NCBI GenBank assembly: GCA_964592105.1
Contig: CAZQBL010000013.1
Location: forward strand, 17,706-81,705
Source: an uncultured Gammaproteobacteria bacterium
GTDB lineage: Bacteria; Patescibacteriota; Patescibacteriia; UBA10025; JAHIVO01
Length of the DNA stretch: 64,000 bases
Direction: 5' to 3'
Part shown: one piece after another, positions 8,945 through 48,503 of the stretch
How positions within the stretch are numbered: position 1 is the first letter of the stretch
Layout of the letters: the number at the start of each line of letters is the position of its first letter
The notes under the pieces: generated by a model
What the model was told of the DNA's origin: nothing
The model's database searches: none
Seen by the model: the letters and a program-made list of their open reading frames with translations, nothing else
Position numbers and translations under genes: made by a program

Positions 8945-9355
8945 TTAGTCTCCCTTTTGAACAAACTTGGTTTTCACGGATAATTTGTGGGCCGCCAAGC
9001 GCATGGCTTCTTTGGCACCGCTTTCTGGCACACCATCCATTTCAAATAGTACGGTACCGCGCTTGACTGTGGCCACATAGTGGTCCACCGAGCCCTTGCC
9101 GCCGCCCATACGAACTTCCGAGCCGTGCAGGGTAACCGGTTTGTCGGGAAAAATCCTGATCCAGATTTTACCACCTTTTTGCACAAAACGGGTCATAGCT
9201 CGTCTGGCCGCTTCAATCTGACGCGAAGAAATCATCCCATTTTCCATGGATTTTAAACCATAGCTGCCAAAATCTATCATGGTTTTGGAAGTAGCGCTTC
9301 CCTTAATACTTCCTCGCTGCCATTTTCGATGTTTTACTTTTTTAGGTATTAACAT
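8945..9355 (-). CDS. rplP: 50S ribosomal protein L16
   Basis: [19 protein letters not shown] signature. Confidence 0.9.
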
Positions 9356-9370
9356 AAAAATAAAATCTAT

Positions 9371-10033
9371 TTATTTATTGATCGGGGACTCGTCAGCTTT
9401 CTTAAAAACTTCACCACGATTTATCCAAACCTTCACACCAATCACCCCGTAAGTTGTCTGCGCTCCGCCACGACAATAGTCAATATCGGCTCGTAATGTA
9501 TGCAAAGGTATGCTTCCCTGAGAAAACTTTTCCTGCCTGGCTATTTCAGAGCCGCCCAAACGGCCACCAATTATGATCTTAACACCCTTGGCCCCAGCCT
9601 GCATAACTTGTTCCATGGCTCTTTTGGCAATACGCCGGAAAGGCATACGTTTTTCCAACTGCTCAATTATCCCTTGGCACACAATCGCCGCATTCAAGTC
9701 TGGCTTGTTAATCTCGTGTATGTTTATATTAAGTTGAGTTTTTTTAGGCAAGAATTTACTTTTTATCTCTTTTTTCAATTCATCAGCTCCGGCTCCACCC
9801 CGGCCAATAACCACACCCGGCTTGGAAGTGTGCAAATTTATCGTTACCTTATCCCCGGATCTTTCCACTTCAATCAAAGCCACACCAGCTTCTTTAAGTT
9901 TTTTTGCCAGCCATTTACGGATTCGGACGTCCTGCTCTAAAAACTTAGCATAATCTTTTTTGGCAAACCATTTTGATTTCCAATTAGCCGTAGTGACTAT
10001 TCTAAATATTCGCGGATGCACTTTTTGTCCCAT
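9371..10033 (-). CDS. rpsC: 30S ribosomal protein S3
   Basis: MGQKVHPRIFR, KH domain. Confidence 0.9.
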   Translation of the reverse strand: MGQKVHPRIFRIVTTANWKSKWFAKKDYAKFLEQDVRIRKWLAKKLKEAGVALIEVERSGDKVTINLHTSKPGVVIGRGGAGADELKKEIKSKFLPKKTQLNINIHEINKPDLNAAIVCQGIIEQLEKRMPFRRIAKRAMEQVMQAGAKGVKIIIGGRLGGSEIARQEKFSQGSIPLHTLRADIDYCRGGAQTTYGVIGVKVWINRGEVFKKADESPINK

Positions 10034-10035
10034 AA

Positions 10036-10617
10036 CTATCTTTCTCCTAAGCGACGGGTAAATTTATCTTTAATATTTTTAAAATCTAAAAATGATTTCT
10101 TCTTCTGTTCTTCGGGTTTTGTCAAGATCTCGGTCTTACCTTTAGACTCATGCTTAATTTCTTTGAAATCAACCACTGGCCGGGCAGTTTCCTTTTCCTT
10201 TGTCGGCGTAGTATGGACTGACGACTTGGCTACTGATTTGACCGTCTTTATCTTGCCCTTCACTTTGGTCTTAGGTGGTGTAACTTTGAGCTCGTCTAAA
10301 ATAATAGTGATGTGCGAGGATCTTTTTAAAATCGGAGTGGCCCGTCCAAAGGCCCGAGGTCTCCAGCGCTTCAACTTTGGCCCTTCGTCAACCATTATCC
10401 TTTTTATAAAAAGATTATCTTTCTTTAATTTAAAATTGTTTTCTGCGTTAGCCACGGCAGAATTCAAAAGTTTCAGCATTGGCCTGGCCGAACCTTTGGA
10501 CAGGAACAACAACTGACTTTCAGCAGCCACCACTGTTTTAGATCTAATAAGATCAGCTACTAATCTGACTTTACGCGGGGCAATTCTTAAAAATCTCAAT
10601 TTGGCCTTAACTTCCAT
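10036..10617 (-). CDS. rplV: 50S ribosomal protein L22 with long Lys-rich C-terminal extension
   Basis: MEVKAKLRFLRIAPRKVRLVADLIR L22 N-terminus; 193 aa vs ~115 typical. Confidence 0.8.
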   Translation of the reverse strand: MEVKAKLRFLRIAPRKVRLVADLIRSKTVVAAESQLLFLSKGSARPMLKLLNSAVANAENNFKLKKDNLFIKRIMVDEGPKLKRWRPRAFGRATPILKRSSHITIILDELKVTPPKTKVKGKIKTVKSVAKSSVHTTPTKEKETARPVVDFKEIKHESKGKTEILTKPEEQKKKSFLDFKNIKDKFTRRLGER

Positions 10618-10632
10618 AGTTCAAAAAAATTT

Positions 10633-10995
10633 TTATTCGCTCTTAAGAGTCTTAGCGCCGGTCGTTGAGGCTTTCTCCTGAGCCGAAGCTAATTCTTTTT
10701 TCTGATTTTCAGCTGCTGCCATTTCAGCTTCGCGTTGCATACGACCACCATGTTTGACGAACTTGCGCGTTGGGGCAAATTCTCCCAGACGATGCCCAAC
10801 CATATTCTCCACAACATAAACCGAAATGTGATCTTTACCATTATGGACACCAAAGGTAAACCCGACCATTTCCGGCGTCACGACTGAATCTCGCGACCAA
10901 GTTTTAATAATTGTCTTGTCGCCAATTTTAAGCTTTGATACTTTCTTCAACAGCTTGGGATCAGTGAATGGACCTTTTTTTATACTCCTGGACAT
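10633..10995 (-). CDS. rpsS: 30S ribosomal protein S19 (C-terminal extension)
   Basis: [19 protein letters not shown] signature; 120 aa. Confidence 0.85.
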
Positions 10996-11036
10996 ATATT
11001 ATTATAAATTACTACTTTTAAAGTTAATTAGTTTGC

Positions 11037-11867
11037 CTAGATCCGTTTTTTAATAATAAATTTATCCGAATATTTACCTGTCTTCCTAGTTTTGACACCC
11101 AGCGCCGGCTTACCCCACGGGGTTTTCGGGTGTTTCATGCCGATCGGATTGTGACCCTCGCCACCGCCATGCGGATGATCAACCGGATTCATGGCTTTGC
11201 CGCGGACCGATGGTTTTATGCCCATCCACCGCTTTTTCCCGGCCTTGCCTAATCTAATATTAAAATGATCCGCATTGGAAACTTGACCAATAGTAGCACA
11301 ACAATCCTTGTGGAATAACCTAACTTCTCCTGAAGGCAATTTTATCTGGGCATAATCCCCCTCCAAGGCCTGAATAATAGCCCCAGCACCGGCGGAACGA
11401 ACCATTTGCGCCCCCGAGCCTGGCTGGATTTCCAAATCATATACCATTATACCTATTGGCATTTTAGACAGGGGCAGGCGGTTGCCAATTTTTATTTCTG
11501 CCCTTTCCAAAGAAGATAAAATTTTATCCCCAACTTTTAGGCCTTCTGGTGCGACAATGTAGCTTTTATCTCCATCAGAATACTGAATCAGCGCCAGATG
11601 GGCAGTTCGGTTAGGATCATACTCCAGAGCCATGACTGTAGCCGGATCATTGTAATGCCGGCGAACATTATCAATGATTCTGACAAAACGTTTGTGACCA
11701 CCGCCTCTATGTCTAACCGTAATTTTACCTTTGTTATTGCGGCCGGCTGGCCGTTTCTTTGAAACTAAAAGATTTTTCTCGGGTCGTTTCTTTGAAAGAT
11801 GCGAAGTGTCTATGACAGAAGCATGTCGGCGACCTGGAGTGGTGGGTTTGTAAGATTTTATCGACAT
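11037..11867 (-). CDS. rplB: 50S ribosomal protein L2
   Basis: 276 aa, GGGHKR and RNxxG motifs. Confidence 0.9.
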
Positions 11868-11880
11868 AAGCTTAATTTTT

Positions 11881-12387
11881 TTATAATCCTTCCTGAATAT
11901 CTATCTTTTCTCCTTGATTCAGGGTAATGATGGCCTTTTTCCAGCTTTTAGTGCGCCCTTCAGTGCGACCATATCTAATTTTTTTTCCGGAAAAATTCAT
12001 TATATTAACTTTAATGGGATCAACACCGTAAACTTTGCGTATGGCTTTGCGTACCTCCACTTTATTGGTTTCGGGAGCAACGGCAAAAACATACTGATTG
12101 GCCGAGCTTAAATAAGAACCTTTTTCGGTAATTAAAGGATGCGTCAGTACCTTGTAAGCATCACCGGTTTCTTCCTTTTTCTGTTTGGCTTTTTTGGACT
12201 TGACCTCGGCTTTTTTCGTAGTTTCCACCAGTTTGCCGTCAGGGGTCACTACCATCTGTCGTTTTGTCTCGGTTACCGTTTTTGGCTGTTCTTTTTTCTC
12301 GACCTTCGACAGCTTGGAAGTCGTCTCTTTTTTTTGTGGAGTTTTGGCCGAAGTTTCTTTTTTCTTAAAAACGTCTAATAGTCCCAT
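11881..12387 (-). CDS. rplW: 50S ribosomal protein L23 with ~75-aa Lys/Thr-rich N-terminal extension
   Basis: core [16 protein letters not shown]...; extension precedes. Confidence 0.75.
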
Positions 12388-39798: not shown

Positions 39799-40497
39799 TT
39801 ACCGAAGTCTTAAATAATGGCTTCTCCTGGCCGGGCCGAACTTCTCAATGGCGTATCGCAACATCGTGCGCGGCATTTTCCTGGCGTATCTATCCAAAAA
39901 TTTTACTTCCAAATTTTGATCGCGTTTGCCAGCTTCGCGCAACATCCAGCCCACGGCTTTGTGCATCAGGTCGTCTTGGTCATTTAACAATATCTCGGCC
40001 AATTTATAAGTATCGCTAAATTCATTATTTCTGATAAAAGCCAAAGTGGCCAAAATAGAAATGCGTCTGTCCCACAGTAATTTTGATTTGGCCAGTTTGT
40101 ACAGAATCTGACGCGGTTTATTCAATAAATAGTTTCCCACAATGTTCGGGGCAGACAGGTCAACCAAATCCCAATTATTGATATTCCGAGTATTGCTCAG
40201 ATACAAATCAAAAATCTTTTGCTTAACCCGAAGATCGCCCTTCTCATACTGTTTGACCAAAATTAACAGGGCCACCAGGCGATGCTCGTGTATTTTACTT
40301 CTTAAAAGCTGCTGAATTTCTGAAAATGTCAGATCCAGATATTTTTTAGCCACCGATCTCTGGACTGGAACTTTTATACCCAGAAAAATATCGCCCTCGC
40401 CGTATTCACCCGGACCGGTTTTGAAAAACCGCTGGAGAATTTTGGCTTGCTGGGGGTTGGCTAAACCTCGAAGTTCTTTTTTAAGTTTAAAAAGCAT
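39799..40497 (-). CDS. DNA alkylation repair protein (AlkC/AlkD-like HEAT-repeat glycosylase)
   Basis: NNWDLVDLSAPNIVGNYL and overall helical-repeat pattern. Confidence 0.7.
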   Translation of the reverse strand: MLFKLKKELRGLANPQQAKILQRFFKTGPGEYGEGDIFLGIKVPVQRSVAKKYLDLTFSEIQQLLRSKIHEHRLVALLILVKQYEKGDLRVKQKIFDLYLSNTRNINNWDLVDLSAPNIVGNYLLNKPRQILYKLAKSKLLWDRRISILATLAFIRNNEFSDTYKLAEILLNDQDDLMHKAVGWMLREAGKRDQNLEVKFLDRYARKMPRTMLRYAIEKFGPARRSHYLRLR

Positions 40498-40576: not shown

Positions 40577-40653
40577 CGGGGTATGGCGCAGTTGGCTAGC
40601 GCGCATGCATGGGGTGCATGAGGCCGTGGGTTCAAGTCCCACTACCCCGACCA
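40577..40653 (+). tRNA. tRNA-Pro (anticodon GGG), CCA encoded
   Basis: Cloverleaf folded by hand: acceptor CGGGGTA/TACCCCG, D-stem GCGC/GCGC, anticodon stem CATGC/GCATG with loop ATGGGGT, T-arm GTGGG-TTCAAGT-CCCAC. Confidence 0.85.
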
Positions 40654-40697
40654 AGTTAGACTTTTTTGAAATTCAGAGGCGATTGGTTGCTCGCTCG

Positions 40698-40761
40698 CCG
40701 CGCCTTTGGCGCGGAAAGCAGACGGGCAAAAATTCCTTCCCCCCAACCCCCTCTTTCCGCC
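40698..40761. repeat. left GC-rich flank repeat: hairpin CCGCGCC-TTT-GGCGCGG plus motif GGGCAAAAATTCCTTCC
   Basis: Imperfect inverted copy of 48005-48098 (17/17 core match, ~75% over ~65 nt). Confidence 0.5.
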
Positions 40762-40921
40762 ACGTCCTCGCTTTGAATGCCGTCGGAATTTGTATTTTGT
40801 TTCGCAAAATGCGTCGCAAGAAAAAGAAGTATTGCCCTTGCCCCAGCCCACCCGTGCGCGGGCGACAACAAGAAACTTCCTATTTGTTGACTAAACAAAT
40901 TAAATTGTGTACTATAATGTT

Positions 40922-40972
40922 AGTATTAGTCATCTAATTGTAGATAAATTATTGTATTTTAATACTAATACT
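40922..40972. promoter_or_regulatory. 9-bp inverted repeat AGTATTAGT...ACTAATACT upstream of XRE regulator gene
   Basis: Seen directly, ends 12 bp before the XRE start codon; candidate autoregulatory operator (C-box-like). Confidence 0.35.
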
Positions 40973-40983
40973 ATCATACCATA

Positions 40984-41196
40984 ATGTCAATGAAAAAAAC
41001 AACAATAGCAAAGAATATAAAGAAGTTGCGAAAGCAACGGGGTTTGTCGCAGGACAAATTGTCCAAATTGGCTAATATTTCCCATAATACGATCATAAAA
41101 ATTGAGTCCGGCGCCATACAAAGCCCGACAATGGACACGGCAAGCAAAATCGCCAAAGCCCTTGGCGTTTCGCTTGATGATTTAGTCAACAAATAA
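40984..41196 (+). CDS. XRE-family helix-turn-helix transcriptional regulator (possible R-M controller protein)
   Basis: IKKLRKQRGLSQDKLSKLANISHNTIIKIESG HTH_3 motif; 70 aa; 4 nt before hsdR. Confidence 0.8.
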   Translation: MSMKKTTIAKNIKKLRKQRGLSQDKLSKLANISHNTIIKIESGAIQSPTMDTASKIAKALGVSLDDLVNK

Positions 41197-41200
41197 AATT

Positions 41201-43705
41201 ATGCAAAAAGAAGCCAAGGCCAGAATAAAAATCAATGAGTTGCTTCAAAATGCCGGCTGGAGATTTTTTGATGATGAAAACGGAAAAGCAAATATTGTTT
41301 TGGAAAACAACGCCAAAATCACAAAGCAAGCCATTGATGAATTTGGCAACGATTTTGAAAAAACCAAAAAAGGATTTATTGATTTTTTATTGCTTGATGA
41401 CAAGGGATTTCCACTGGTAGTTTTAGAGGCAAAATCGGAAGACAAAGACCCGCTTGACGGCAAAGAGCAGGCCCGCCGTTATGCCCAATCTCAAAACGCT
41501 CGCTTTATTATACTTTCAAACGGCAATCTTCATTACTTTTGGGATTTGGAACGAGGCAATCCGGCAATTATTACTACTTTCCCAACTTATGAATCTTTGA
41601 AGCATTTGGAAACTTTCAAACCGAGCTTTTCAATTCTTTCAGAGGAAAAAGTTGAAAGCGATTATATTGTTCAAACGCAAAACCCGACTTATCAAAAAGA
41701 TCCTCGATGGATTGATGAAACGCAAAGAGCAGATTTTATCAAAGAGCAAGATTTGAAATTTTTGCGCCCCTATCAATTAGCTGCAGTTCATGCTTTGCAA
41801 AATTCGGCGAAGAAAGGAAATGACCGCTATCTTTTTGAAATGGCGACCGGAACAGGCAAGACACTTGTTTCAGCCGGTGTGATTAAACTTTTTTTGAAAA
41901 CAGGAAACGCTAAAAGAATTTTGTTTTTGGTTGACCGGTTAGAATTGGAAGACCAAGCGTACAAAAATTTCAAAAAAATCCTGCATAACGATTTTAACAG
42001 TGTGATTTACAAAGAAAATCGCGATGACTGGCGAAAGGCGGAAATTGTTGTTTCAACTGTGCAAAGTTTATCGTTTGACAATAAATACAAAAAACTTTTT
42101 TCGCCCACTGATTTTGACTTGATAATTTCTGATGAAGCCCATCGCTCCATTGGCGGAAACAGCCGCGCTGTTTTTGAGTATTTTGTCGGCTATAAATTAG
42201 GGCTTACGGCAACACCGAAAGATTATCTCAAAAACATTGACCCGCAAAAAATCAGCGAAAAAGACCCGCGAGCGTGGGAACGTCGCCAGCTTTTAGACAC
42301 TTACACAACTTTTGGCTGTCCTTCCGGCGAGCCGACTTTCCGTTATAGTTTGCTGGACGGCGTAAAAGACGGCTATCTTGTCAATCCGGTTGTCGCAGAC
42401 GCGAGAACTGAAATCACCACCGAGCTTTTATCCGAAAAAGGTTATGCCTTGATGGTTGAAAATGAGGAAGGCATAGAGGAAGAACAAACCTTTTTTCAAA
42501 AAGATTTCGAACGAAAGTTTTTTTCAGAAAAAACCAATCAGATTTTCTGCAAAACATTTTTGGAAAACGCGCTTAAAGACCCAATCAGCGACGAAATCGG
42601 CAAGAGCATTGTTTTTTGCGTCAACCAAAAACATGCTTCAAAAGTTACCCAAATCTTAAACCAGTTTGCTGATCAACTTTGGCCCGGCAAATATAATTCC
42701 GATTTTGCCGTGCAAGTTACCTCCAATATCAAAGACGCACAGCAATTTACTATCAATTTCGCAAACAACAACTTAAACGGCCAAACAAAATGGCTAGCGG
42801 GCTATAAATCCAGCAAAACCAGAGTTTGCGTAACTGTCGGCATGATGACGACCGGCTACGACTGCCAGGATATTTTGAATCTTTGTTTGATGCGTCCGAT
42901 TTTTTCACCGACTGATTTTATCCAAATTAAAGGACGAGGCACAAGAAAATATACATTTAAATACAAAGATGCTGATAGTGAAGAAATAATAGCAGAAAAA
43001 GAAACTTTTAAACTTTTTGATTTCTTTGCTAATTGTGAATATTTTGAAGAAAAATATAATTATGACCAAGTTTTGCAATTACCGATTAAAACTGGAACAC
43101 GAACGGAGGGCGGCGAAGGTGTTGATATTGACGAGGTGAGCATTTTTAATCCTGATCCGCTCAAAACTTTTTCGGAAAAAGCCGTCGGCCTTGCCGGCAT
43201 GAAAGTTGACTGGAAGCTGTTTGAAAAGTTTGAACAAACTGTAAAAAATGATCCAATAGTTAAGCAAAAATACGAACAAGGAGATATTCAAGGCGTTGAA
43301 GAATATGTCAAAGGGGAAATTTTTGAAAAGCCTGAGGATTACTTCAATCTGGAAAAGCTGCGCAAAGCAGTTAAGGCCGACCGACGCATCACACTTAGAG
43401 AATTTATTGAAAAAATTTTTGGCGGTATAAAGAAATTTAAAACCAAAGACGAGCTTTTGGAAGAAGAATTTGAAAAGTTTGTTGCGATTTACAAGCCAGA
43501 TAATAAATATGCACTGCTTATCAAAAATTATCTCAAGGCGTATATCACTGATCCGGAAATCCGCGACATTGTGGAAACCAAAGAATACAGCCGTTTTGCC
43601 ACTAATCCAAAAGTTACGATGAAAGACTTTCGCGACCTAAACGGCTGGCGAGAAGTTGTGCCGGAATACGTCAAAGATTATGTGTCGCTTAATACTTTTA
43701 TGTAA
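41201..43705 (+). CDS. hsdR: type I restriction enzyme R subunit (HsdR; PD-(D/E)xK N-domain + SF2 helicase + EcoEI_R_C-like tail)
   Basis: N-terminus NELLQNAGW, DFLLLDD...VVLEAK nuclease motif; ATGTGKT (motif I), DEAH; 834 aa. Confidence 0.85.
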   Translation: MQKEAKARIKINELLQNAGWRFFDDENGKANIVLENNAKITKQAIDEFGNDFEKTKKGFIDFLLLDDKGFPLVVLEAKSEDKDPLDGKEQARRYAQSQNARFIILSNGNLHYFWDLERGNPAIITTFPTYESLKHLETFKPSFSILSEEKVESDYIVQTQNPTYQKDPRWIDETQRADFIKEQDLKFLRPYQLAAVHALQNSAKKGNDRYLFEMATGTGKTLVSAGVIKLFLKTGNAKRILFLVDRLELEDQAYKNFKKILHNDFNSVIYKENRDDWRKAEIVVSTVQSLSFDNKYKKLFSPTDFDLIISDEAHRSIGGNSRAVFEYFVGYKLGLTATPKDYLKNIDPQKISEKDPRAWERRQLLDTYTTFGCPSGEPTFRYSLLDGVKDGYLVNPVVADARTEITTELLSEKGYALMVENEEGIEEEQTFFQKDFERKFFSEKTNQIFCKTFLENALKDPISDEIGKSIVFCVNQKHASKVTQILNQFADQLWPGKYNSDFAVQVTSNIKDAQQFTINFANNNLNGQTKWLAGYKSSKTRVCVTVGMMTTGYDCQDILNLCLMRPIFSPTDFIQIKGRGTRKYTFKYKDADSEEIIAEKETFKLFDFFANCEYFEEKYNYDQVLQLPIKTGTRTEGGEGVDIDEVSIFNPDPLKTFSEKAVGLAGMKVDWKLFEKFEQTVKNDPIVKQKYEQGDIQGVEEYVKGEIFEKPEDYFNLEKLRKAVKADRRITLREFIEKIFGGIKKFKTKDELLEEEFEKFVAIYKPDNKYALLIKNYLKAYITDPEIRDIVETKEYSRFATNPKVTMKDFRDLNGWREVVPEYVKDYVSLNTFM

Positions 43706-43736
43706 GTTAGTATGAAAATTATCTAACGGACTAAAT

Positions 43737-46181
43737 ATGCTCACTCAAGAAACCAAAAGAAAAATTGACTCCGCCCGCGATATTTTGGTCGGCAAAGTGC
43801 CGGACCCCAAAGCGCAAGTTGAGCAAATCACCACCGCTTTAATTTACAAGTTTATGGACGATATGGACAAAGAAGCGCAGGAGCTTGGCGGCAAAGCGCG
43901 CTTTTTTACCAACGGCTACGAAAAATACGCGTGGACAAAATTGATGGACGCCAAACTTGGCGGACACGAGCGTCTTGATTTATATCTTGAAGCGATTACT
44001 TTTTTATCTCGCAATCCGCATATCCCCCAGCTTTTCCGCGACATTTTCAAAGACGCATTTTTGCCGTATCGCGACTCCGAAACTCTGAATTTATTTTTGA
44101 AAGAAATTAACGGATTTACTTATGACCATAGCGAAGATTTAGGCGATGCTTTTGAATATCTGCTTTCAATTCTTGGCTCACAAGGCGACGCTGGACAATT
44201 CCGCACGCCACGCCATATTATTGATTTTATTGTGGCGGCGGTTGCTCCGAAAAAAGACGAAACAATATGCGACCCCGCTTGCGGAACGGCTGGATTTTTA
44301 ATTTCTGCCTATAAGCATATTCTGAAAACAAATAAAGAAAAACCCTTGACTCCGGACGAGCGGAAAAAATTGATGGATCATTTTGTCGGCTATGATATTT
44401 CGCCTGATATGGTGCGGCTTTCCAAAGTCAATTTATATCTGCACGGTTTTCCAAACCCAACCATTTTTGAATACGATACACTCACGAGCGAAGAAAAATG
44501 GGAAGACAATTTTGACGTGATGCTGGCCAATCCGCCGTTCATGTCGCCCAAAGGCGGCATCCGCCCGCATAAGAGGTTTTCGGTGCAAGCCAATCGCGCG
44601 GAAGTCCTGTTTGTTGATTATATTTTAGAACATCTAAAACCCAACGGCCGAGCCGGCATTATCGTGCCGGAAGGGATAATTTTTCAATCTGCCAATGCTT
44701 ACAAACAATTGCGTAAAAACTTGATTGAAGACGGCCTTTTTGCCGTTGTCTCTCTGCCGCCGGGCGTCTTTCAGCCGTATTCAGGAGTAAAGACTAGCGT
44801 TTTGCTTTTTGATAATGCTTTAGCTAAGAAAACAAAAGACCTTTTATTTTTGAAAATTAAAAACGACGGCTATGACCTTGGCGCGCAAAGGCGGGAAATA
44901 GATAAAAATGATTTGCCGTTAGCGTTAGAAATAATCAAAAAATACAAAAACGCATTAAAAGAAAGCAATGAATTTAAATTGAACGAGAAGCAGGCAAAAA
45001 TCGCTCATCTTGTTGCCAAAGAAAAAATTGCTCAAAGTGGTGATTATAATCTTTCTGGAGATAGATACATAGAAACTGTGAATTTCGTCAATCAAAAATG
45101 GCCATTGGTGGAGTTGCAAAAAGTTACTAAGATTGATTGGGGTAACACTGAACTAACGAAGAAATCTTATATTAAGAATGGTGAATTTCTCGGTGTGAGC
45201 GCTACCGGCGCTGATGGTCGAATTAATCATTTTGAGCACGAAGTTGGTGTTACTGTTCTGTCTGCAATCGGCGCAAATTGTGGTAAGGTATTTTATCCGA
45301 CCGAAAAATTTACTGCTATAAAAAATACAATCACTATTACGCCTGATAGTAAGAAATTGAAGCCAAAATTTCTGTTCTACATAATGAAAAGTAATACCTT
45401 GCCTAAACGAGGTGGCGGTCAACCTTTTATGTCAAAAGGTGATGTTGAAAAGTATAAAATCCCCCTTCCGCCGCTTGAAGTTCAAAAAGAAATCGTTGAG
45501 CAAATTGAAGTAAAACAAAAAGCCATTGAAGCCGCCAAAGCGGTAATTGAAAATCTTGAGAGAGAGAGACGCTATTTTGGCCAGTCACTTAGGAAATTAG
45601 AAGATGTTGAGTGGGTAGAGTTAGAAAAAGTTGCTAACTTTTTTGAAGATGGTAATTGGATTGAGAGCAAGGATCAAGCAGACAACGGTATAAGACTTAT
45701 TCAAACTGGAAATATCGGCATAGGCGAGTATTTAGATAAAGCAGAAAAATCGCGCTTCGTTTCCGAAAATACATTCAAGAAATTAAAGTGTACAGAAATT
45801 TTTGAAGGTGATATTTTAATTTCGCGATTACCCGATCCAGTTGGTCGTGCTTGTTTGCTACCAAAATTAGAAACAAGAGCGATCACAGCAGTTGATTGTA
45901 CTATTGTTAGATTTGACAATAAAAAAGTTATTCCGAAATTCTTCCTATTATATTCAATGACTGGTGATTATTTTAGTAGTCTTGCTCAATACTTAACCGG
46001 TGCAAGTAGGCAAAGGATAAGTCGTCTTAATTTAGGAAAGGTTAAAATCCCACTCCCACAGCTTGAAGTCCAAAAACAGCTGGTTGCAGATATGGAAGAG
46101 CAGGAAAAAATCATTGAGGTGAATAAAAAATTGATAAAGATATTGGAGCAAAAAATTTCTGATGTTTTAAGAGAAATATAG
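43737..46181 (+). CDS. fused type I R-M methyltransferase-specificity protein (HsdM N6-adenine MTase + two HsdS target-recognition domains)
   Basis: GQFRTPRHII, DPACGTAGFL (motif I), NPPF (motif IV); C-terminal half has two TRDs each followed by conserved coiled-coil spacer (PLPPLEVQKEIV... / IPLPQLEVQKQLV...). Confidence 0.85.
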   Translation: MLTQETKRKIDSARDILVGKVPDPKAQVEQITTALIYKFMDDMDKEAQELGGKARFFTNGYEKYAWTKLMDAKLGGHERLDLYLEAITFLSRNPHIPQLFRDIFKDAFLPYRDSETLNLFLKEINGFTYDHSEDLGDAFEYLLSILGSQGDAGQFRTPRHIIDFIVAAVAPKKDETICDPACGTAGFLISAYKHILKTNKEKPLTPDERKKLMDHFVGYDISPDMVRLSKVNLYLHGFPNPTIFEYDTLTSEEKWEDNFDVMLANPPFMSPKGGIRPHKRFSVQANRAEVLFVDYILEHLKPNGRAGIIVPEGIIFQSANAYKQLRKNLIEDGLFAVVSLPPGVFQPYSGVKTSVLLFDNALAKKTKDLLFLKIKNDGYDLGAQRREIDKNDLPLALEIIKKYKNALKESNEFKLNEKQAKIAHLVAKEKIAQSGDYNLSGDRYIETVNFVNQKWPLVELQKVTKIDWGNTELTKKSYIKNGEFLGVSATGADGRINHFEHEVGVTVLSAIGANCGKVFYPTEKFTAIKNTITITPDSKKLKPKFLFYIMKSNTLPKRGGGQPFMSKGDVEKYKIPLPPLEVQKEIVEQIEVKQKAIEAAKAVIENLERERRYFGQSLRKLEDVEWVELEKVANFFEDGNWIESKDQADNGIRLIQTGNIGIGEYLDKAEKSRFVSENTFKKLKCTEIFEGDILISRLPDPVGRACLLPKLETRAITAVDCTIVRFDNKKVIPKFFLLYSMTGDYFSSLAQYLTGASRQRISRLNLGKVKIPLPQLEVQKQLVADMEEQEKIIEVNKKLIKILEQKISDVLREI

Positions 46182-46183
46182 TT

Positions 46184-47914
46184 ATGTTTATCAAATCCCT
46201 TACAATCAAAAATTTTCGCTGTTTCGGAAAAGGAACGGACGAAAAAGGCACAACAATAAACTTAAATAATGGCTTAACCGCTTTTATCGGCAGAAACGGA
46301 AGCGGCAAAACTGCTATTTTGGAAGCGTTGAATTTTTTAATCGGCTCGGATTATTTGCCGACAAAAATTAATGAGAAAGATTTTAACAGTGACGCAAAAG
46401 ATATAAAAGACGAGATTGTAATTGAGGGCGAGACGGAAAAGCCGTTTTTTGCAACACTTGATGTTCGCTCAAACACCAATCAGCTTGAAACAATTATTAT
46501 TCCCTGCAATAAAATCAAGCTCACGATTAAGCGGCGAGAAAAACCGGAAAAGGTTTTAGACGATCCTTTTATCATCAATAAGTATGTTTTGCCGATTGTT
46601 GGCGATATTGATGAGAGTATTTTTGAAGAAGATGAAAAAGCGCGCAAAGCCTCTAGGATTGACCAAATCAAAGAAGGTTATACCGTTTTTTACAAACTTA
46701 AAGACGGGCAAGAGCGTAATGCCAAAGTAATAAGTTATCAGCTTACTTACAATCCAAATCGCCTGACAAAATGTCCAAAATCTTACTATCTCTCAAAGGA
46801 CAGAGACGATGATGTTGCCGGCAATTATTCTCTTATCGCGAAAATTTTAACCGACCTGCATTGGAAGTATAAGAAAAAGCAGGCAGGCGGCGAAAATACG
46901 ATTTCCTGCGAATATAACACGCTTGCCGGATCGTTACGGGGCATTGTGGACGAAAAGAGCATATTGATTAACAGAATAAACGAAAAAGTAAAAGCGATTT
47001 GTTGCGATGACAAAAATTTTCAGATTGATTTTATTGATATTGACCAACCTTACAAATCAGCTTTTGTCGCAAAAAAGGAAGGCAAAAAATTGCTTTTGCC
47101 TGACAATCTTGGCTCTGGTTTTAACATCTTGATTGCTTACGCTCTTTTTGCGTATGTCGCCGACCAAGAGAAAATCCCTATTGTTTTGATTATTGACGAG
47201 CCGGAACTGCATATGCATAGCGACTGGCAAAAGAAAATGTATGAGGTTTTTACCAAACAAACCGATCTGCAATTCGTTTATTCCACCCAATCTGAAAATT
47301 TTATTTCGTTGAAAAACTGGAAACAAATCCGTTCAATTTCAGATTTTCAAGTTTTTCCAAAAAAGGAGATTTTACAAGAGCAGATCACCGCAACAGATGG
47401 ACAAAATGGAACAAGGGCGGATTATCTTGATGATTACGCAACAAAAAATTTGCATATCAGTACAATATTGCGCGAAAATCTTGAGTTATTTTTTGCCAAA
47501 AAATGCGTTTTGGTCGAAGGCCCGTCGGAAAAATATGGCTTGCCGAAACTTTTGAAACTTTCCAGCTGTGATGTTGATAATTTTTCTGTTTCAATAATTC
47601 CGGCGTGGGGCAAAACGAAAATCAAAAATTATCAAATGATTTGTAAAGTTTTTGGCATAGATTACTTTACGATTTATGACAATGATAAAGCGGAAGACGA
47701 TGAACCGACAAACGAAAACACAGCGATTGAAAATAACGCCGAAAATGGAAAGAAGACAAGATTTTCAACAAGTTTTGAGGCAAAACTGGGAGTAACCGGG
47801 GAGAGTAAATTTCAAAAGTTGGTGAAAAAGATTGATGAGATAACCGATACAAACTCTTTGGATCAAGAAATTAAAACTTGTTTGAGCAACCTAAAAACCT
47901 TTATTGAAAGCTAA
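46184..47914 (+). CDS. OLD-family nuclease (N-terminal ABC/AAA_15-type ATPase + C-terminal Toprim)
   Basis: Walker A GRNGSGKTAILEAL; Toprim VLVEGPSEKYGLPKLL ... YDNDKAED; start 3 nt after hsdMS stop. Confidence 0.8.
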   Translation: MFIKSLTIKNFRCFGKGTDEKGTTINLNNGLTAFIGRNGSGKTAILEALNFLIGSDYLPTKINEKDFNSDAKDIKDEIVIEGETEKPFFATLDVRSNTNQLETIIIPCNKIKLTIKRREKPEKVLDDPFIINKYVLPIVGDIDESIFEEDEKARKASRIDQIKEGYTVFYKLKDGQERNAKVISYQLTYNPNRLTKCPKSYYLSKDRDDDVAGNYSLIAKILTDLHWKYKKKQAGGENTISCEYNTLAGSLRGIVDEKSILINRINEKVKAICCDDKNFQIDFIDIDQPYKSAFVAKKEGKKLLLPDNLGSGFNILIAYALFAYVADQEKIPIVLIIDEPELHMHSDWQKKMYEVFTKQTDLQFVYSTQSENFISLKNWKQIRSISDFQVFPKKEILQEQITATDGQNGTRADYLDDYATKNLHISTILRENLELFFAKKCVLVEGPSEKYGLPKLLKLSSCDVDNFSVSIIPAWGKTKIKNYQMICKVFGIDYFTIYDNDKAEDDEPTNENTAIENNAENGKKTRFSTSFEAKLGVTGESKFQKLVKKIDEITDTNSLDQEIKTCLSNLKTFIES

Positions 47915-48004
47915 ATTTTGATAGAATGATAGCTAGCTGAACCCACCCACTGTCCAATTTAAAGTCCCGCCGCCGTCCGAAAAAACGCTTTCGGGTTTCC
48001 AGCA

Positions 48005-48098
48005 GGCGGGCAAAAAGGAAGGGGGTCTGGAGGAAGGAATTTTTGCCCGCCCGCCGTTTCTGGGTGGGGGTGGGTGTGCGCCGCCGAAGGCGACGCAC
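48005..48098. repeat. right GC-rich flank repeat incl. 11-bp-stem hairpin GCGGGCAAAAA...TTTTTGCCCGC (loop with GGAAGG x2) and hairpin GTGCGCCGCCGAAGGCGACGCAC
   Basis: Inverted imperfect copy of left flank 40698-40761. Confidence 0.5.
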
Positions 48099-48264
48099 AA
48101 GTCAGTCAAAGTTTTGCTCAAAATAGGTTCGCACCTCGTCCAATAATTGCGACCAAGTTAAACATTGCGAAATTGAAAAACTTTACTTATTTTATTATAT
48201 TATAGAAATATTACAAAATTTTACCAATACGAAACCCGCTTATAATTTAGCGGGTTTTAAAAAA

Positions 48265-48300
48265 TTATAAAAAATACCGCCCGTAAAATTAACAGGCGGT
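48265..48300 (-). terminator. rho-independent terminator downstream of 48318..48503 gene
   Basis: minus-strand CCGCC-loop-GGCGG followed by TATTTTTT. Confidence 0.45.
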
Positions 48301-48317
48301 AAATTAGCTGAAATGAA

Positions 48318-48503
48318 CTATTTATCCAGTACTACCTCCACTTTGAAATTGCAAGAATTTGCCCCTGAACATCGTAATTCAACTTTGTTGCCAGCCATTG
48401 GGTCGTGATACGCCAACACGTACTCTATCACGCCTTTTTGGCACTTGGGACAAATTCTTCCCACGAACTTCCTGGCTTTGACTGCGCTCATTTGACTACA
48501 CAT
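48318..48503 (-). CDS. small zinc-ribbon protein
   Basis: 61 aa, CPKC...CSGANSC spacing. Confidence 0.35.
   Translation of the reverse strand: MCSQMSAVKARKFVGRICPKCQKGVIEYVLAYHDPMAGNKVELRCSGANSCNFKVEVVLDK

What the first reader, a model, noticed from the sequence alone, without database searches (positions are those of the whole stretch)
40577..48160. Integrase-less defence island inserted at the 3' end of tRNA-Pro(GGG)
Directly 3' of tRNA-Pro the composition and gene content change. The 11-mer CGACCAAGTTA from the tRNA 3' end (40648-40658) recurs at 48150-48160. The second copy is preceded by a degenerate T-arm copy (GGTTC..GTCC..CGACCAAG), the classic attL/attR signature of site-specific integration into a tRNA gene. 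The ~7.5-kb cargo is AT-richer than the flanking housekeeping DNA. It encodes XRE regulator, HsdR, fused HsdM-S and OLD nuclease as one tightly spaced plus-strand operon. No recombinase is present, so the element is either a decayed remnant or is mobilised in trans.
Basis: partly seen in the sequence, partly recalled or inferred. Interest (0 to 1): 0.8.

Follow-up and report, generated by a model that had tools for sequence, protein, structure and literature searches.

The report
Integrase-less restriction/OLD defence cassette beside tRNA-Pro
A 7.5-kb block of anti-phage genes (a type I restriction-modification system plus an OLD nuclease) was inserted just after a proline tRNA gene of a Patescibacteria genome. 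It belongs to a family of recombinase-less cassettes that sit at the 3' ends of different tRNA/tmRNA genes in unrelated bacteria, so it is a real but fairly ordinary kind of genomic island.

Summary
tRNA-Pro(GGG) lies at 40577-40653. The 11-mer CGACCAAGTTA occurs exactly twice (40648-40658, 48150-48160). Between the copies is one tight plus-strand operon: XRE, HsdR, fused HsdM-S, OLD. No recombinase was found among the window ORFs tested.

The 11-mer alone is weak (about 5% by chance), and the "degenerate T-arm copy" is not tRNA-derived. Comparison makes the case. The same cassette (about 85% nt identity; HsdR and OLD 90-94% aa) lies directly 3' of tRNA-Ala(GGC) in another Patescibacteria genome. 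It also lies between tRNA-Pro(TGG) and tRNA-Gly in a third genome. An OLD-only derivative lies 3' of the tmRNA gene in Thermodesulfovibrio.

In three of these cases the direct repeats (11, 42 and 26 nt) all start exactly 6 nt before the RNA's 3' end. The right end of the element is conserved up to that point. The element also carries long imperfect inverted repeats, 57 nt at 95% in the best copy.

The host's flanking proteins tested have no relatives at 90% identity or above, whereas HsdR and OLD have dozens across phyla. The tetranucleotide signature peaks on the island.

Best reading: a horizontally acquired, integrase-less, CIME-like defence cassette at the tRNA 3'-end sublocation. It is either mobilised in trans or now fixed. 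No empty site was found.

The parts
40577..40653 (+). tRNA-Pro(GGG) with encoded CCA; the insertion target (attL side)
   Evidence: ARAGORN and Rfam RF00005 at 63.4 bits. It is on the opposite strand to every neighbouring host gene.
40648..40658 (+). Left direct repeat CGACCAAGTTA: the last 6 nt of the tRNA plus 5 nt downstream
   Evidence: Exact 11-mer with two copies in the window. Its start is 6 nt before the tRNA 3' end, the same offset as in L115 and L130.
40659..40880 (.). Left non-coding GC-rich block (55% GC). It holds a decayed left inverted repeat (TTTTTTGAAATTCAGAGG..CGATTG) and the inner inverted-repeat core at 40718-40752.
   Evidence: It aligns in pieces with the 57-nt inverted repeat of L115. 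No special RNA fold (z = -1.1).
40834..40979 (+). Conserved promoter-proximal module: GC hairpin motif (GCCCTTGCCCCAGCCCACCCGTGCGCGGGCGAC), a sigma-70-like promoter at 40887-40915, and an operator-like palindrome at 40909-40928/40960-40979
   Evidence: The motif and the -35/-10 boxes are conserved in four elements. Promoter scan. Palindrome I22. The regulatory role is inferred.
40984..41196 (+). XRE/HTH_3 regulator (70 aa), probably a controller (C-protein-like) of the operon
   Evidence: Pfam HTH_3 1e-19. PADLOC Control_protein 1e-10 and capH 9e-14. Present in L115 (69% identity) and in L123 (a 68-aa HTH_3 ORF in the same position; no alignment to the window XRE was obtained).
41201..43705 (+). 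HsdR, type I restriction subunit of the EcoAI/type IB kind (834 aa)
   Evidence: ResIII 1e-40 and HSDR_N. NCBIfam EcoAI/FtnUII R 1e-71, below its cutoff. PDB 3h1t 5e-33. D..EAK nuclease motif, GTGKT and DEAH read directly in the sequence. Belongs to a 74-member 90% cluster.
43737..46181 (+). Fused HsdM-HsdS (814 aa): N6-adenine methyltransferase plus a specificity part with two target-recognition domains
   Evidence: N6_Mtase 1e-54 and Methylase_S in two stretches. PADLOC MTase_I 2e-99 and Specificity_I. PDB 5ybb and 7eew. NPPF motif. Internal 88-nt repeat 45442/46030, taken as the two conserved regions of the S part. The TRD region is the part that diverges between copies.
46184..47914 (+). 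OLD-family nuclease (576 aa): N-terminal ABC-type ATPase plus C-terminal TOPRIM
   Evidence: AAA_15 2e-21 and OLD-like_TOPRIM 6e-18. PADLOC GajA 2e-32, Old 3e-29, AriA 8e-23. PDB 6p74, deposited as 'putative ATP-dependent endonuclease of the OLD family', 1.5e-19. Follows a type I R-M gene in 6 of 7 contexts.
47935..48110 (.). Right non-coding GC-rich block (60% GC) with the inner inverted-repeat core at 48020-48054
   Evidence: About 85% identical to the L115 right block. No special fold (z = -0.6).
48110..48149 (+). Conserved right end of the element: TTTTGCTCAAA (outer part of the right inverted repeat), then an 18-nt spacer containing TCGTCCAATA that abuts the repeat
Evidence: Conserved in the window, L115 and L130.
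48150..48160 (+). Right direct repeat CGACCAAGTTA (attR side)
48232..48301 (.). Two hairpins in host flank DNA between the island and the 61-aa gene (48232-48257 and 48275-48301). The second is a terminator for the minus-strand gene.
   Evidence: Sequence and terminator scan. Not part of the element; it marks the host side of the junction.

Best explanation
Window 40648-48160 is a horizontally acquired, non-autonomous integrative defence cassette of about 7.5 kb. It was inserted at the extreme 3' end of the tRNA-Pro(GGG) gene of a Patescibacteria genome.

Shown:
- It is one member of a family with conserved ends. These comprise a promoter-proximal module, GC-rich inverted-repeat blocks, and a right end of the form TTTTGCTCAAA-N13-TCGTCCAAYA.
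- Family members sit on the same strand directly 3' of different tRNA/tmRNA genes.
- Flanking direct repeats start 6 nt before the RNA 3' end, at C[G/C]ACCA.
- No copy carries a recombinase inside the repeats.

Inferred:
- Insertion was by site-specific recombination at the 'asymmetric 3'-end' tDNA sublocation, catalysed by a tyrosine recombinase supplied in trans. This is CIME-like (cis-mobilizable-element-like) hitch-hiking or tandem accretion.
- The window copy has partly decayed inverted repeats and may no longer move.

Cargo (inferred from domains):
- The XRE protein controls the operon from a palindromic operator.
- The HsdM-S fusion methylates a bipartite target at adenine N6.
- HsdR, an SF2 translocase with a PD-(D/E)xK nuclease, cuts unmethylated DNA.
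- The OLD ATPase-TOPRIM nuclease, translationally abutted to hsdMS and co-conserved with type I R-M genes, acts as a second layer. It probably works as a back-up or abortive nuclease when restriction fails or is inhibited.
For: Anatomy of the island:
- Anatomy and gene content.
- The island genes and the tRNA are the only plus-strand genes among 60 ORFs of at least 110 aa.
- The tetranucleotide distance peaks on the island.

Recent horizontal transfer:
- AlkD, h61 and NDK are 90% singletons; UPRTase and the response regulator sit in 2-member clusters. HsdR sits in a 74-member 90% cluster.
- OLD has more than 15 clusters at 90-94% identity, including Magasanikbacteria and Thermodesulfovibrio.
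- Host EF-G falls to 83% by the fifth hit, and all named hits are Patescibacteria.

Independent insertions of the same cassette:
- L114-L122: tRNA-Ala(GGC), then the cassette, then a SurA-like gene. There is a 42-nt direct repeat (93%) and a 57-nt inverted repeat (95%).
- L128: tRNA-Leu, tRNA-Pro(TGG), the cassette, then tRNA-Gly, Arg and His.
- L130-L133: tmRNA, then an OLD-only derivative. There is a 26-nt direct repeat, the same right end, and a frameshifted Xer/integron-like tyrosine recombinase 340 bp beyond the right repeat.
- The right end is conserved up to the repeat in three copies.
- NDK-anchored relatives lack the four genes.

OLD linked to type I R-M:
- The linkage recurs down to 62% OLD identity.

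Literature:
- A Patescibacteria genomic island with type I R-M plus an 'ATP-dependent endonuclease' has been reported (PMC12455944).
- CIME definition (PMC6323972).
- The 3'-end sublocation used by one integrase subfamily on tRNAs of several identities (Williams 2002, NAR 30:866) is cited from my own knowledge; the paper is not held in the library.
Against: - No empty site or island-free variant was found, so insertion at this exact site rests on comparison with other genomes only.
- The 11-nt repeat alone is marginal.
- Repeat lengths differ (11, 26 and 42 nt), and most of each repeat lies downstream of the tRNA. A simple shared attP does not predict this.
- No cognate integrase-bearing element with the same ends was identified. 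The one nearby integrase (L130) is a pseudogene outside the repeats.
- The L128 copy has no detectable repeats.
- In NDK relatives, tRNA-Pro(GGG) lies on the same strand as NDK and has a very different sequence. The local history therefore includes a rearrangement that I cannot reconstruct.
- The functional coupling of OLD to the R-M system is only a gene-neighbourhood inference.
Confidence: 0.75

Rival explanations
1. Decayed remnant of a once larger, integrase-bearing tRNA island. The integrase and mobility genes were deleted in this lineage, leaving cargo between the old attL and attR.
For: - No recombinase lies between the repeats.
- The inverted repeats of the window copy are eroded compared with L115.
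- There is a faint 13-nt identity between 40807-40819 and the box-II (SFATH) coding part of the L130 integrase.
Against: - The same compact, integrase-less architecture, with conserved ends running right up to the repeats, is seen at three other independent tDNA sites. The lack of an integrase is therefore ancestral to the family, not a local deletion.
- The integrase-like match is not significant; tblastn finds nothing.
Confidence: 0.15
2. A transposon-like mobile insertion cassette. Cargo is bounded by terminal inverted repeats and moved by a DDE-type (or other) transposase encoded elsewhere. The direct repeats would then be target-site duplications at a preferred target, the tRNA CCA end.
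For: - L115 has a 57-nt inverted repeat at 95% (125 nt at 84%) inside its direct repeats.
- Inverted-repeat remnants lie at both window ends.
- The window's 11-bp perfect duplication abuts the left inverted repeat.
Against: - The duplications are 11, 26 and 42 nt, not a fixed length.
- The right inverted repeat is always separated from the repeat by a conserved 18-nt spacer. In L115 the left one is 30 nt away.
- L130 lacks the left inverted repeat altogether.
- No other copy of the repeat occurs in the window or in 1.8 Mb of fetched loci outside the family.
Confidence: 0.08
3. No insertion at this site. The cassette is simply a variable 'defence hotspot' exchanged by homologous recombination through conserved flanks, or the 11-mer is chance and the genes are long-resident.
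For: - The 11-mer has about a 5% chance probability.
- The region between NDK and the copper-ATPase genes is variable in all relatives.
- AlkD next door is also patchily distributed.
Against: - Flanks differ completely between the four contexts, so flank-mediated homologous exchange cannot explain cross-phylum spread.
- The repeats start at the same tRNA position in three contexts.
- Composition, strand and 90-94% identity to copies in other phyla also argue against long residence.
Confidence: 0.02

Closest known systems
tRNA/tmRNA-integrated genomic islands at the asymmetric 3'-end sublocation (Williams 2002; Islander database, PMC4383910)
   Same: - An intact tDNA lies at one end and a direct repeat of its 3' terminus at the other.
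- The cargo is foreign.
- Related elements use tRNAs of several identities and the tmRNA gene.
   Different: - There is no integrase between the repeats, which Islander requires.
- The repeat covers only 6 nt of the tRNA and runs into the downstream spacer.
- The element carries long inverted repeats.
CIMEs (cis-mobilizable elements; ICEberg 2.0, PMC6323972)
   Same: Both have attL- and attR-like repeats, lack integration and transfer genes, and carry cargo only. The L130 context resembles tandem accretion next to an integrase-bearing island.
   Different: No cognate ICE or IME with the same att sites is known. The hosts are Patescibacteria, where no conjugative element was identified in this analysis. 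Mobilisation is untested.
Tycheposons of Prochlorococcus (bioRxiv 10.1101/2020.12.28.424599)
   Same: Both are cargo elements in streamlined genomes that build islands next to tRNA-Pro(TGG), tRNA-Ala(GGC), tmRNA and similar genes. Both leave degenerate, integrase-less remnants.
   Different: Tycheposons carry their own tRNA-specific tyrosine recombinase and are flanked by partial tRNAs of about 40 nt. Here there is no recombinase and only 6 nt of the tRNA is repeated.
Type I restriction-modification systems (EcoAI/type IB-like HsdR; HsdM; HsdS)
   Same: All three activities are present, with the expected domains and motifs.
   Different: - M and S are fused in one 814-aa protein.
- The gene order is R then M-S, behind an XRE controller.
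- The HsdR score is below the EcoAI equivalog cutoff.
- The R plus fused M-S pair is itself widespread at 55-68% identity.
OLD-family nucleases: Class 1 (P2 Old, Ts OLD, Vc OLD; PMC12392090, PMC12445682) and PARIS AriA/AriB (PMC11464382)
   Same: A single polypeptide with an ABC ATPase and a TOPRIM domain, and no UvrD partner. The best solved match is the OLD-family endonuclease 6p74.
   Different: It is not a stand-alone gene. It is operonic with, and co-conserved with, a type I R-M system. Its trigger and substrate (DNA nicking or tRNA cleavage) are unknown.
Genomic island of Patescibacteria nzgw456 with type I R-M plus an 'ATP-dependent endonuclease' (PMC12455944)
   Same: The host phylum and, as described, the gene set are the same.
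   Different: That paper predicts the island from composition only. It does not describe tRNA linkage, repeats or cross-phylum copies. Sequence identity to the window island was not checked.

Membership tests
tDNA-integrated genomic island (Islander criteria) | Intact tRNA/tmRNA gene at one end | tested here: met
   tRNA-Pro(GGG) at 40577-40653
tDNA-integrated genomic island (Islander criteria) | Displaced fragment of the same tDNA in direct orientation at the other end | tested here: inconclusive
   Only an 11-nt repeat, of which 6 nt is tRNA, with about a 5% chance probability. The upstream 40 nt are not tRNA-like (z = 0.0). Homologous elements have 26-nt and 42-nt repeats at the same offset.
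tDNA-integrated genomic island (Islander criteria) | Integrase gene inside the island | tested here: not met
   No recombinase domain in any of the four proteins, and there are no other ORFs of note.
tDNA-integrated genomic island (Islander criteria) | Absent from related genomes (empty site) | tested here: inconclusive
   The four genes are absent from all 24 NDK-anchored loci. Those relatives are only 55-82% identical in NDK, and the region is rearranged. All assemblies of the same organism carry the island.
CIME (cis-mobilizable element) | Retains attL and attR but lacks integration and transfer genes | tested here: met
   Repeats at both ends and no recombinase or relaxase. The same holds in L115 and L130.
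CIME (cis-mobilizable element) | A cognate autonomous element uses the same att site and can mobilise it | tested here: inconclusive
   The only lead is a frameshifted tyrosine recombinase just beyond the right repeat in L130. No third repeat occurs within 8 kb. None was found among the window ORFs tested.
Type I restriction-modification system | HsdR with an N-terminal nuclease and an SF2 ATPase | tested here: met
   HSDR_N, ResIII and DEAD domains. PDB 3h1t. Motifs read.
Type I restriction-modification system | HsdM N6-adenine methyltransferase and HsdS with two TRDs | tested here: met
   N6_Mtase 1e-54 and two Methylase_S stretches in one fused protein.
Type I restriction-modification system | Activity: methylation of a bipartite site and ATP-dependent cleavage at a distance | not testable with these tools
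   Needs cloning, methylome sequencing and restriction assays.
EcoAI/FtnUII (type IB) HsdR equivalog | Score above the NCBIfam NF046051 cutoff (550 bits) | tested here: not met
   242 bits. It is related to this family but is not a member of the equivalog.
Class 1 OLD nuclease | Single polypeptide with an N-terminal ABC ATPase and a C-terminal TOPRIM | tested here: met
   AAA_15 at residues 1-374 and OLD-like_TOPRIM at 436-501. PDB 6p74.
Class 1 OLD nuclease | Single-gene system with no obligate partner gene | tested here: not met
   It starts 2 nt after hsdMS and follows a type I R-M gene in 6 of 7 contexts. The one stand-alone copy (L130) keeps a 43-codon hsdMS remnant.
Gabija (Class 2 OLD, GajA+GajB) | UvrD-like helicase GajB adjacent | tested here: not met
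   No helicase gene follows OLD; the next feature is the island end.
DDE-type transposon / mobile insertion cassette | Inverted repeats at the very termini and target duplications of fixed length | tested here: not met
   Inverted repeats exist. However, they are separated from the repeats by an 18-nt spacer on the right in all copies and by 30 nt on the left in L115 (about 3 nt in the window). The duplications are 11, 26 and 42 nt.

The most novel reading that the evidence does not exclude
The cassette represents an undescribed class of non-autonomous element. It is bounded by long inverted repeats plus a conserved right-end sequence. It homes to the C[G/C]ACCA 3' terminus of essentially any tRNA or tmRNA gene, using a recombinase it does not encode: a host Xer-like enzyme or an unlinked helper, in the manner of IMEX elements at dif. 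By this route it ferries a type I R-M/OLD two-layer defence module between phyla, from Patescibacteria to Nitrospirota.
Probability: 0.15. Interest if true: 0.75.

Novelty: new member of a known kind. Interest (0 to 1): 0.45.

Why it matters
- It gives a concrete, sequence-defined example of how ultra-small Patescibacteria genomes acquire defence. The vehicle is a compact, self-regulated R-M plus OLD operon that travels without its own recombinase and lands at tRNA 3' ends.
- Near-identical copies occur in a different phylum: the OLD gene is 95.7% nt identical between a Patescibacteria contig and a Thermodesulfovibrio contig.
- The recurrent OLD/type I R-M linkage is a testable lead for what triggers single-polypeptide OLD nucleases.
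- The conserved ends and the fixed junction offset would let such cassettes be found systematically. Integrase-dependent island finders miss them.

Tried and rejected
- **Empty site.** AlkD as an anchor in representative genomes gave only relatives of 67% identity or less in scattered taxa. NDK as an anchor in metagenomes gave relatives at 55-82% whose tRNA-Pro region is rearranged. Exact-protein look-ups found only the same organism, always with the island.
- **T-arm remnant.** Rejected.
- **GC-rich end blocks as a known or structured RNA.** There was no Rfam hit, and fold z-scores were -1.1 and -0.6.
- **Inverted-repeat or right-end motif in viral contigs.** One pattern gave no hit. The other gave four chance hits with no homology and no tRNA.
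- **Island DNA or OLD protein on known plasmids or phages.** No match. OLD has no relative in IMG/VR. HsdR plus fused M-S pairs occur there at 55-68% identity, without OLD or a tRNA.
- **Recombinase elsewhere in the window.** None among the ORFs tested.
- **tRNA carried by the element.** Rejected. The tRNAs differ between contexts, and the L115-type contigs all share the same sequence upstream of the tRNA.
- **Left GC block as an integrase fossil.** There is only a 13-nt identity, which is not significant.
- **Third att repeat beyond the L130 integrase.** Not found within 8 kb.


Full report
**What is at the coordinates**

ARAGORN finds one tRNA in the window, tRNA-Pro(GGG) at 40577-40653 on the plus strand, with its CCA encoded. 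Rfam agrees.

The 11-mer CGACCAAGTTA is exact at 40648-40658 and at 48150-48160 and occurs nowhere else in the window. It comprises the last 6 nt of the tRNA plus 5 nt downstream.

Between the two copies lie four plus-strand genes separated by 4, 31 and 2 nt:
- a 70-aa XRE/HTH_3 protein;
- an 834-aa HsdR (HSDR_N, ResIII and DEAD domains, nearest the EcoAI/type IB family but below its equivalog cutoff);
- an 814-aa fusion of an N6-adenine methyltransferase with a two-TRD specificity part;
- a 576-aa OLD-family protein (ABC-type ATPase plus OLD TOPRIM).

Catalytic motifs are readable in all three enzymes: D..EAK, GTGKT and DEAH in HsdR; DPACGTAGF and NPPF in HsdM-S; GSGKT, DEPE and the TOPRIM acidic residues in OLD. 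No recombinase domain is present in the island, in ten further window ORFs, or in the precomputed Pfam lists covering about 29.8-58.5 kb. The ribosomal-protein region at 1.8-20.6 kb was not scanned.

The 11-mer is marginal. About 0.075 such matches are expected in the next 12 kb, and 21 of 400 shuffles produce one.

The GC drop is small, 39.2% against 42.9%. However, the strand-symmetric tetranucleotide distance has its single peak on the island, 0.039 against a mean of 0.017 (z = 3.6).

The 'degenerate T-arm copy' is not real. The 40 nt before the second 11-mer resemble the local tRNA no better than shuffled sequence (z = 0.0).

Two things were missed. First, every one of the 60 ORFs of at least 110 aa in the window is on the minus strand except the island genes (and one ORF that overlaps the tRNA itself, 40605-40937), and the tRNA is on the plus strand too. 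Second, both island ends are GC-rich non-coding blocks (55-60% GC) that contain an inverted repeat, 40718-40752 against 48020-48054.

**Host and relatives**

EF-G places the genome in Patescibacteria; the named best hits are 'Patescibacteria group' and Kerfeldbacteria. The same contig occurs in JGI samples 3300010308 and 3300022548, in an NCBI assembly, and in Logan SRR10519663. The island is always present.

AlkD, next to the tRNA, has no relative above 67% identity, and its relatives are scattered over archaea and bacteria.

NDK-anchored metagenome loci (55-82% identity) keep LigA-GatC-GatA-RR-NDK and then a tRNA-Pro(GGG). That tRNA is on the same strand as NDK, has a very different sequence, and is followed by unrelated genes. 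None of these loci has the four island genes.

So the cassette is absent from relatives, but a clean empty site is not available. The opposite orientation of the tRNA in the window remains unexplained.

**Evidence that the cassette is mobile and tRNA-associated**

At 90% identity, AlkD, h61 and NDK are singletons, and UPRTase and the response regulator sit in 2-member clusters. HsdR sits in a 74-member cluster. OLD has more than 15 clusters at 90-94% identity, including Magasanikbacteria and Thermodesulfovibrio. By comparison, the far more conserved EF-G drops to 83% by its fifth hit.

Contexts of these homologues:

- **(i) L114-L122, another Patescibacteria genome.** The order is purC, tRNA-Leu(CAA), tRNA-Ala(GGC), then XRE-HsdR-HsdMS-OLD, then a SurA-like gene and mreB. 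Nucleotide identity to window 41004-48068 is about 85%; HsdR is 93.5% and OLD 92.4% identical at the protein level. The cassette is flanked by a 42-nt direct repeat at 93% (CCACCA[G/A]AAAGTAAGGG...). Just inside the repeat is a 57-nt inverted repeat at 95%, or 125 nt at 84% if the palindromic terminator is included.
- **(ii) L128/L129.** HsdR-HsdMS-OLD lies between tRNA-Pro(TGG) and tRNA-Gly(TCC) inside a tRNA array. The ends are AT-shifted and decayed, with no detectable repeats.
- **(iii) L130-L133, Thermodesulfovibrio.** The order is smpB, tmRNA, a 43-codon hsdMS remnant, then OLD. This OLD gene is 95.7% nt identical to the L115 OLD. A 26-nt direct repeat (CCACCATATTGAATTAG[T/C]CGCCTCGC) flanks the unit, and the right end is the same as in the other copies. 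A frameshifted Xer/integron-integrase-like gene lies 340 bp beyond the right repeat.

In the window, L115 and L130 the repeat begins exactly 6 nt before the RNA 3' end (CGACCA or CCACCA). It is preceded by a conserved right end, TTTTGCTCAAA-N13-TCGTCCAAYA plus 4 nt. A promoter-proximal module is conserved in four copies: a GC hairpin motif, TTGAC, and 17 nt further on TATAAT. Four independent placements directly 3' of an RNA gene and on the same strand cannot be chance.

**Other contexts**

These show that the modules recombine:
- HsdR plus a fused M-S occurs with an AAA_13 ATPase instead of OLD (L123).
- It occurs with other small genes next to rpsL (L124).
- R-MS-OLD occurs at 80% OLD identity (L135).
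- A distant OLD (62%) lies in an HsdM-HsdS-HsdR-YgjP-OLD-GmrSD island with a large serine recombinase 5.5 kb away (L143).
- R plus fused M-S pairs at 55-68% identity occur on IMG/VR contigs, without OLD or a tRNA.

The OLD/type I R-M linkage is therefore recurrent. The tRNA-end cassette with conserved ends is a subset of it.

**How it most likely got there**

The fixed junction at the extreme 3' end of tRNAs of different identities, and of tmRNA, matches the 'asymmetric 3'-end' sublocation that one subfamily of tyrosine integrases uses. This point comes from Williams 2002, cited from my own knowledge because the paper is not held in the library.

An element that keeps att-like repeats but has no integration genes fits the definition of a CIME (PMC6323972). 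The L130 arrangement, next to an integrase-bearing island at the same tmRNA, looks like tandem accretion.

I therefore favour site-specific insertion by a recombinase supplied in trans. The window copy is possibly now immobile, because its inverted repeats are eroded.

Some facts do not fit neatly:
- Repeat lengths are 11, 26 and 42 nt.
- Most of each repeat lies downstream of the tRNA.
- L115's left copy is extended into a perfect 27-bp-stem palindrome (I3).
- L130 lacks the left inverted repeat.

A DDE-type transposition with target duplication is disfavoured. The inverted repeats are not terminal and the duplications are not of fixed length.

**How the cargo most likely works (inferred from domains and neighbourhood)**

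- The XRE protein probably autoregulates the operon from the palindrome overlapping the promoter (40909-40979).
- HsdM-S methylates a bipartite site. Its TRD region is the most divergent part between copies, as expected for specificity swapping.
- HsdR translocates and cuts unmethylated DNA.
- OLD starts 2 nt after hsdMS and is co-conserved with type I R-M genes, so it is a likely second layer.

Known relatives act in several ways. Vc OLD nicks DNA (PMC12392090). P2 Old cleaves tRNA anticodon arms (PMC12445682). The related PARIS system acts in response to phage proteins that counter restriction (PMC11464382). Which of these applies here is unknown.

**Comparison and novelty**

A compositionally predicted island with a type I R-M system and an 'ATP-dependent endonuclease' has been reported in a Patescibacteria MAG (PMC12455944). 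tRNA-seeded islands in streamlined genomes are known as tycheposons (bioRxiv 10.1101/2020.12.28.424599).

The window island is thus a new member of a known kind. What is new is the definition of a recombinase-less family with conserved ends, a fixed junction offset at several tDNAs, and near-identical copies in different phyla.

**Verdict**

Interest is moderate (0.45).

Noticed in passing
window 1-64000: All 60 ORFs of at least 110 aa are on the minus strand except the island genes and one ORF (40605-40937) that overlaps the tRNA. The tRNA is also on the plus strand. The window shows an extreme coding-strand bias and includes the ribosomal protein/EF-Tu/EF-G region at about 2-20 kb.
   Followed up: partly
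window 40577-40653 vs L085 7770-7842, L088 4660-4732, L090 11628-11701: In NDK-anchored relatives, tRNA-Pro(GGG) lies on the same strand as NDK. Its D-arm, anticodon stem and T-arm differ greatly from the window's tRNA. In the window the tRNA is inverted and lies 7.5 kb further away. No similar tRNA occurs in any fetched locus. This is unexplained; it could reflect an inversion of the tRNA plus island, or a different local history.
   Followed up: partly
window 39799-40497: The AlkD-like DNA-alkylation repair gene next to the tRNA has its best relatives (67% or less) in DPANN archaea, CPR and assorted bacteria. It is probably itself horizontally acquired. The whole stretch from NDK to the copper-ATPase genes is variable among relatives.
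   Followed up: partly
window 40920-40971, 47992-48087, 48199-48325: Independent assemblies break at the island borders. Logan contigs end at 40920, 40971, 47992 and 48087. Two contigs of JGI 3300022548 overlap at 48200-48325, and one ends with a mismatched base at 48199. This may reflect population heterogeneity or coverage loss in the GC-rich or AT-rich blocks.
   Followed up: partly
L115 10393-10698 (HsdMS 9294-12062): The HsdM-S fusion of the tRNA-Ala copy is 922 aa. It carries an insertion of about 305 nt, annotated as a GIY-YIG nuclease domain, between the methyltransferase and the first TRD.
   Followed up: no
L123 6154-8442; L143 2252-18908: In L123 an AAA_13 ATPase (762 aa) takes the place of OLD behind a related XRE-HsdR-HsdM-HsdS. 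In L143 a 62%-identical OLD sits in an HsdM-HsdS-HsdR-YgjP-OLD-GmrSD island, with a large serine recombinase 5.5 kb downstream.
   Followed up: partly
L115 11951-13810 vs L130 9887-11749: The OLD gene is 95.7% nt identical between a Patescibacteria contig and a contig labelled Thermodesulfovibrio (Nitrospirota). This points to very recent cross-phylum transfer or shared vectors in the same habitats. The binning of these contigs was not verified.
   Followed up: partly
L130 12147-12963: The tyrosine recombinase just beyond the right repeat of the tmRNA-associated copy is split by a frameshift into a 236-aa ORF and a 67-aa ORF. The 67-aa ORF holds the HxxR...Y catalytic box.
   Followed up: partly
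window 40807-40819: A 13-nt stretch is identical to the box-II (SFATH) coding part of that L130 integrase. The minus-strand frame reads LATHF-x10-IQ. The match is not statistically significant. It is a faint hint that the left GC-rich block could be an integrase fossil.
   Followed up: partly
L115 6237-6290: The left direct repeat of the tRNA-Ala copy is extended by ACTTTCTGGTGG. This is the reverse complement of the tRNA end plus 6 nt, and it makes a perfect 27-bp-stem palindrome. The right copy is only the ordinary terminator hairpin. The origin of the palindrome is unknown.
   Followed up: no
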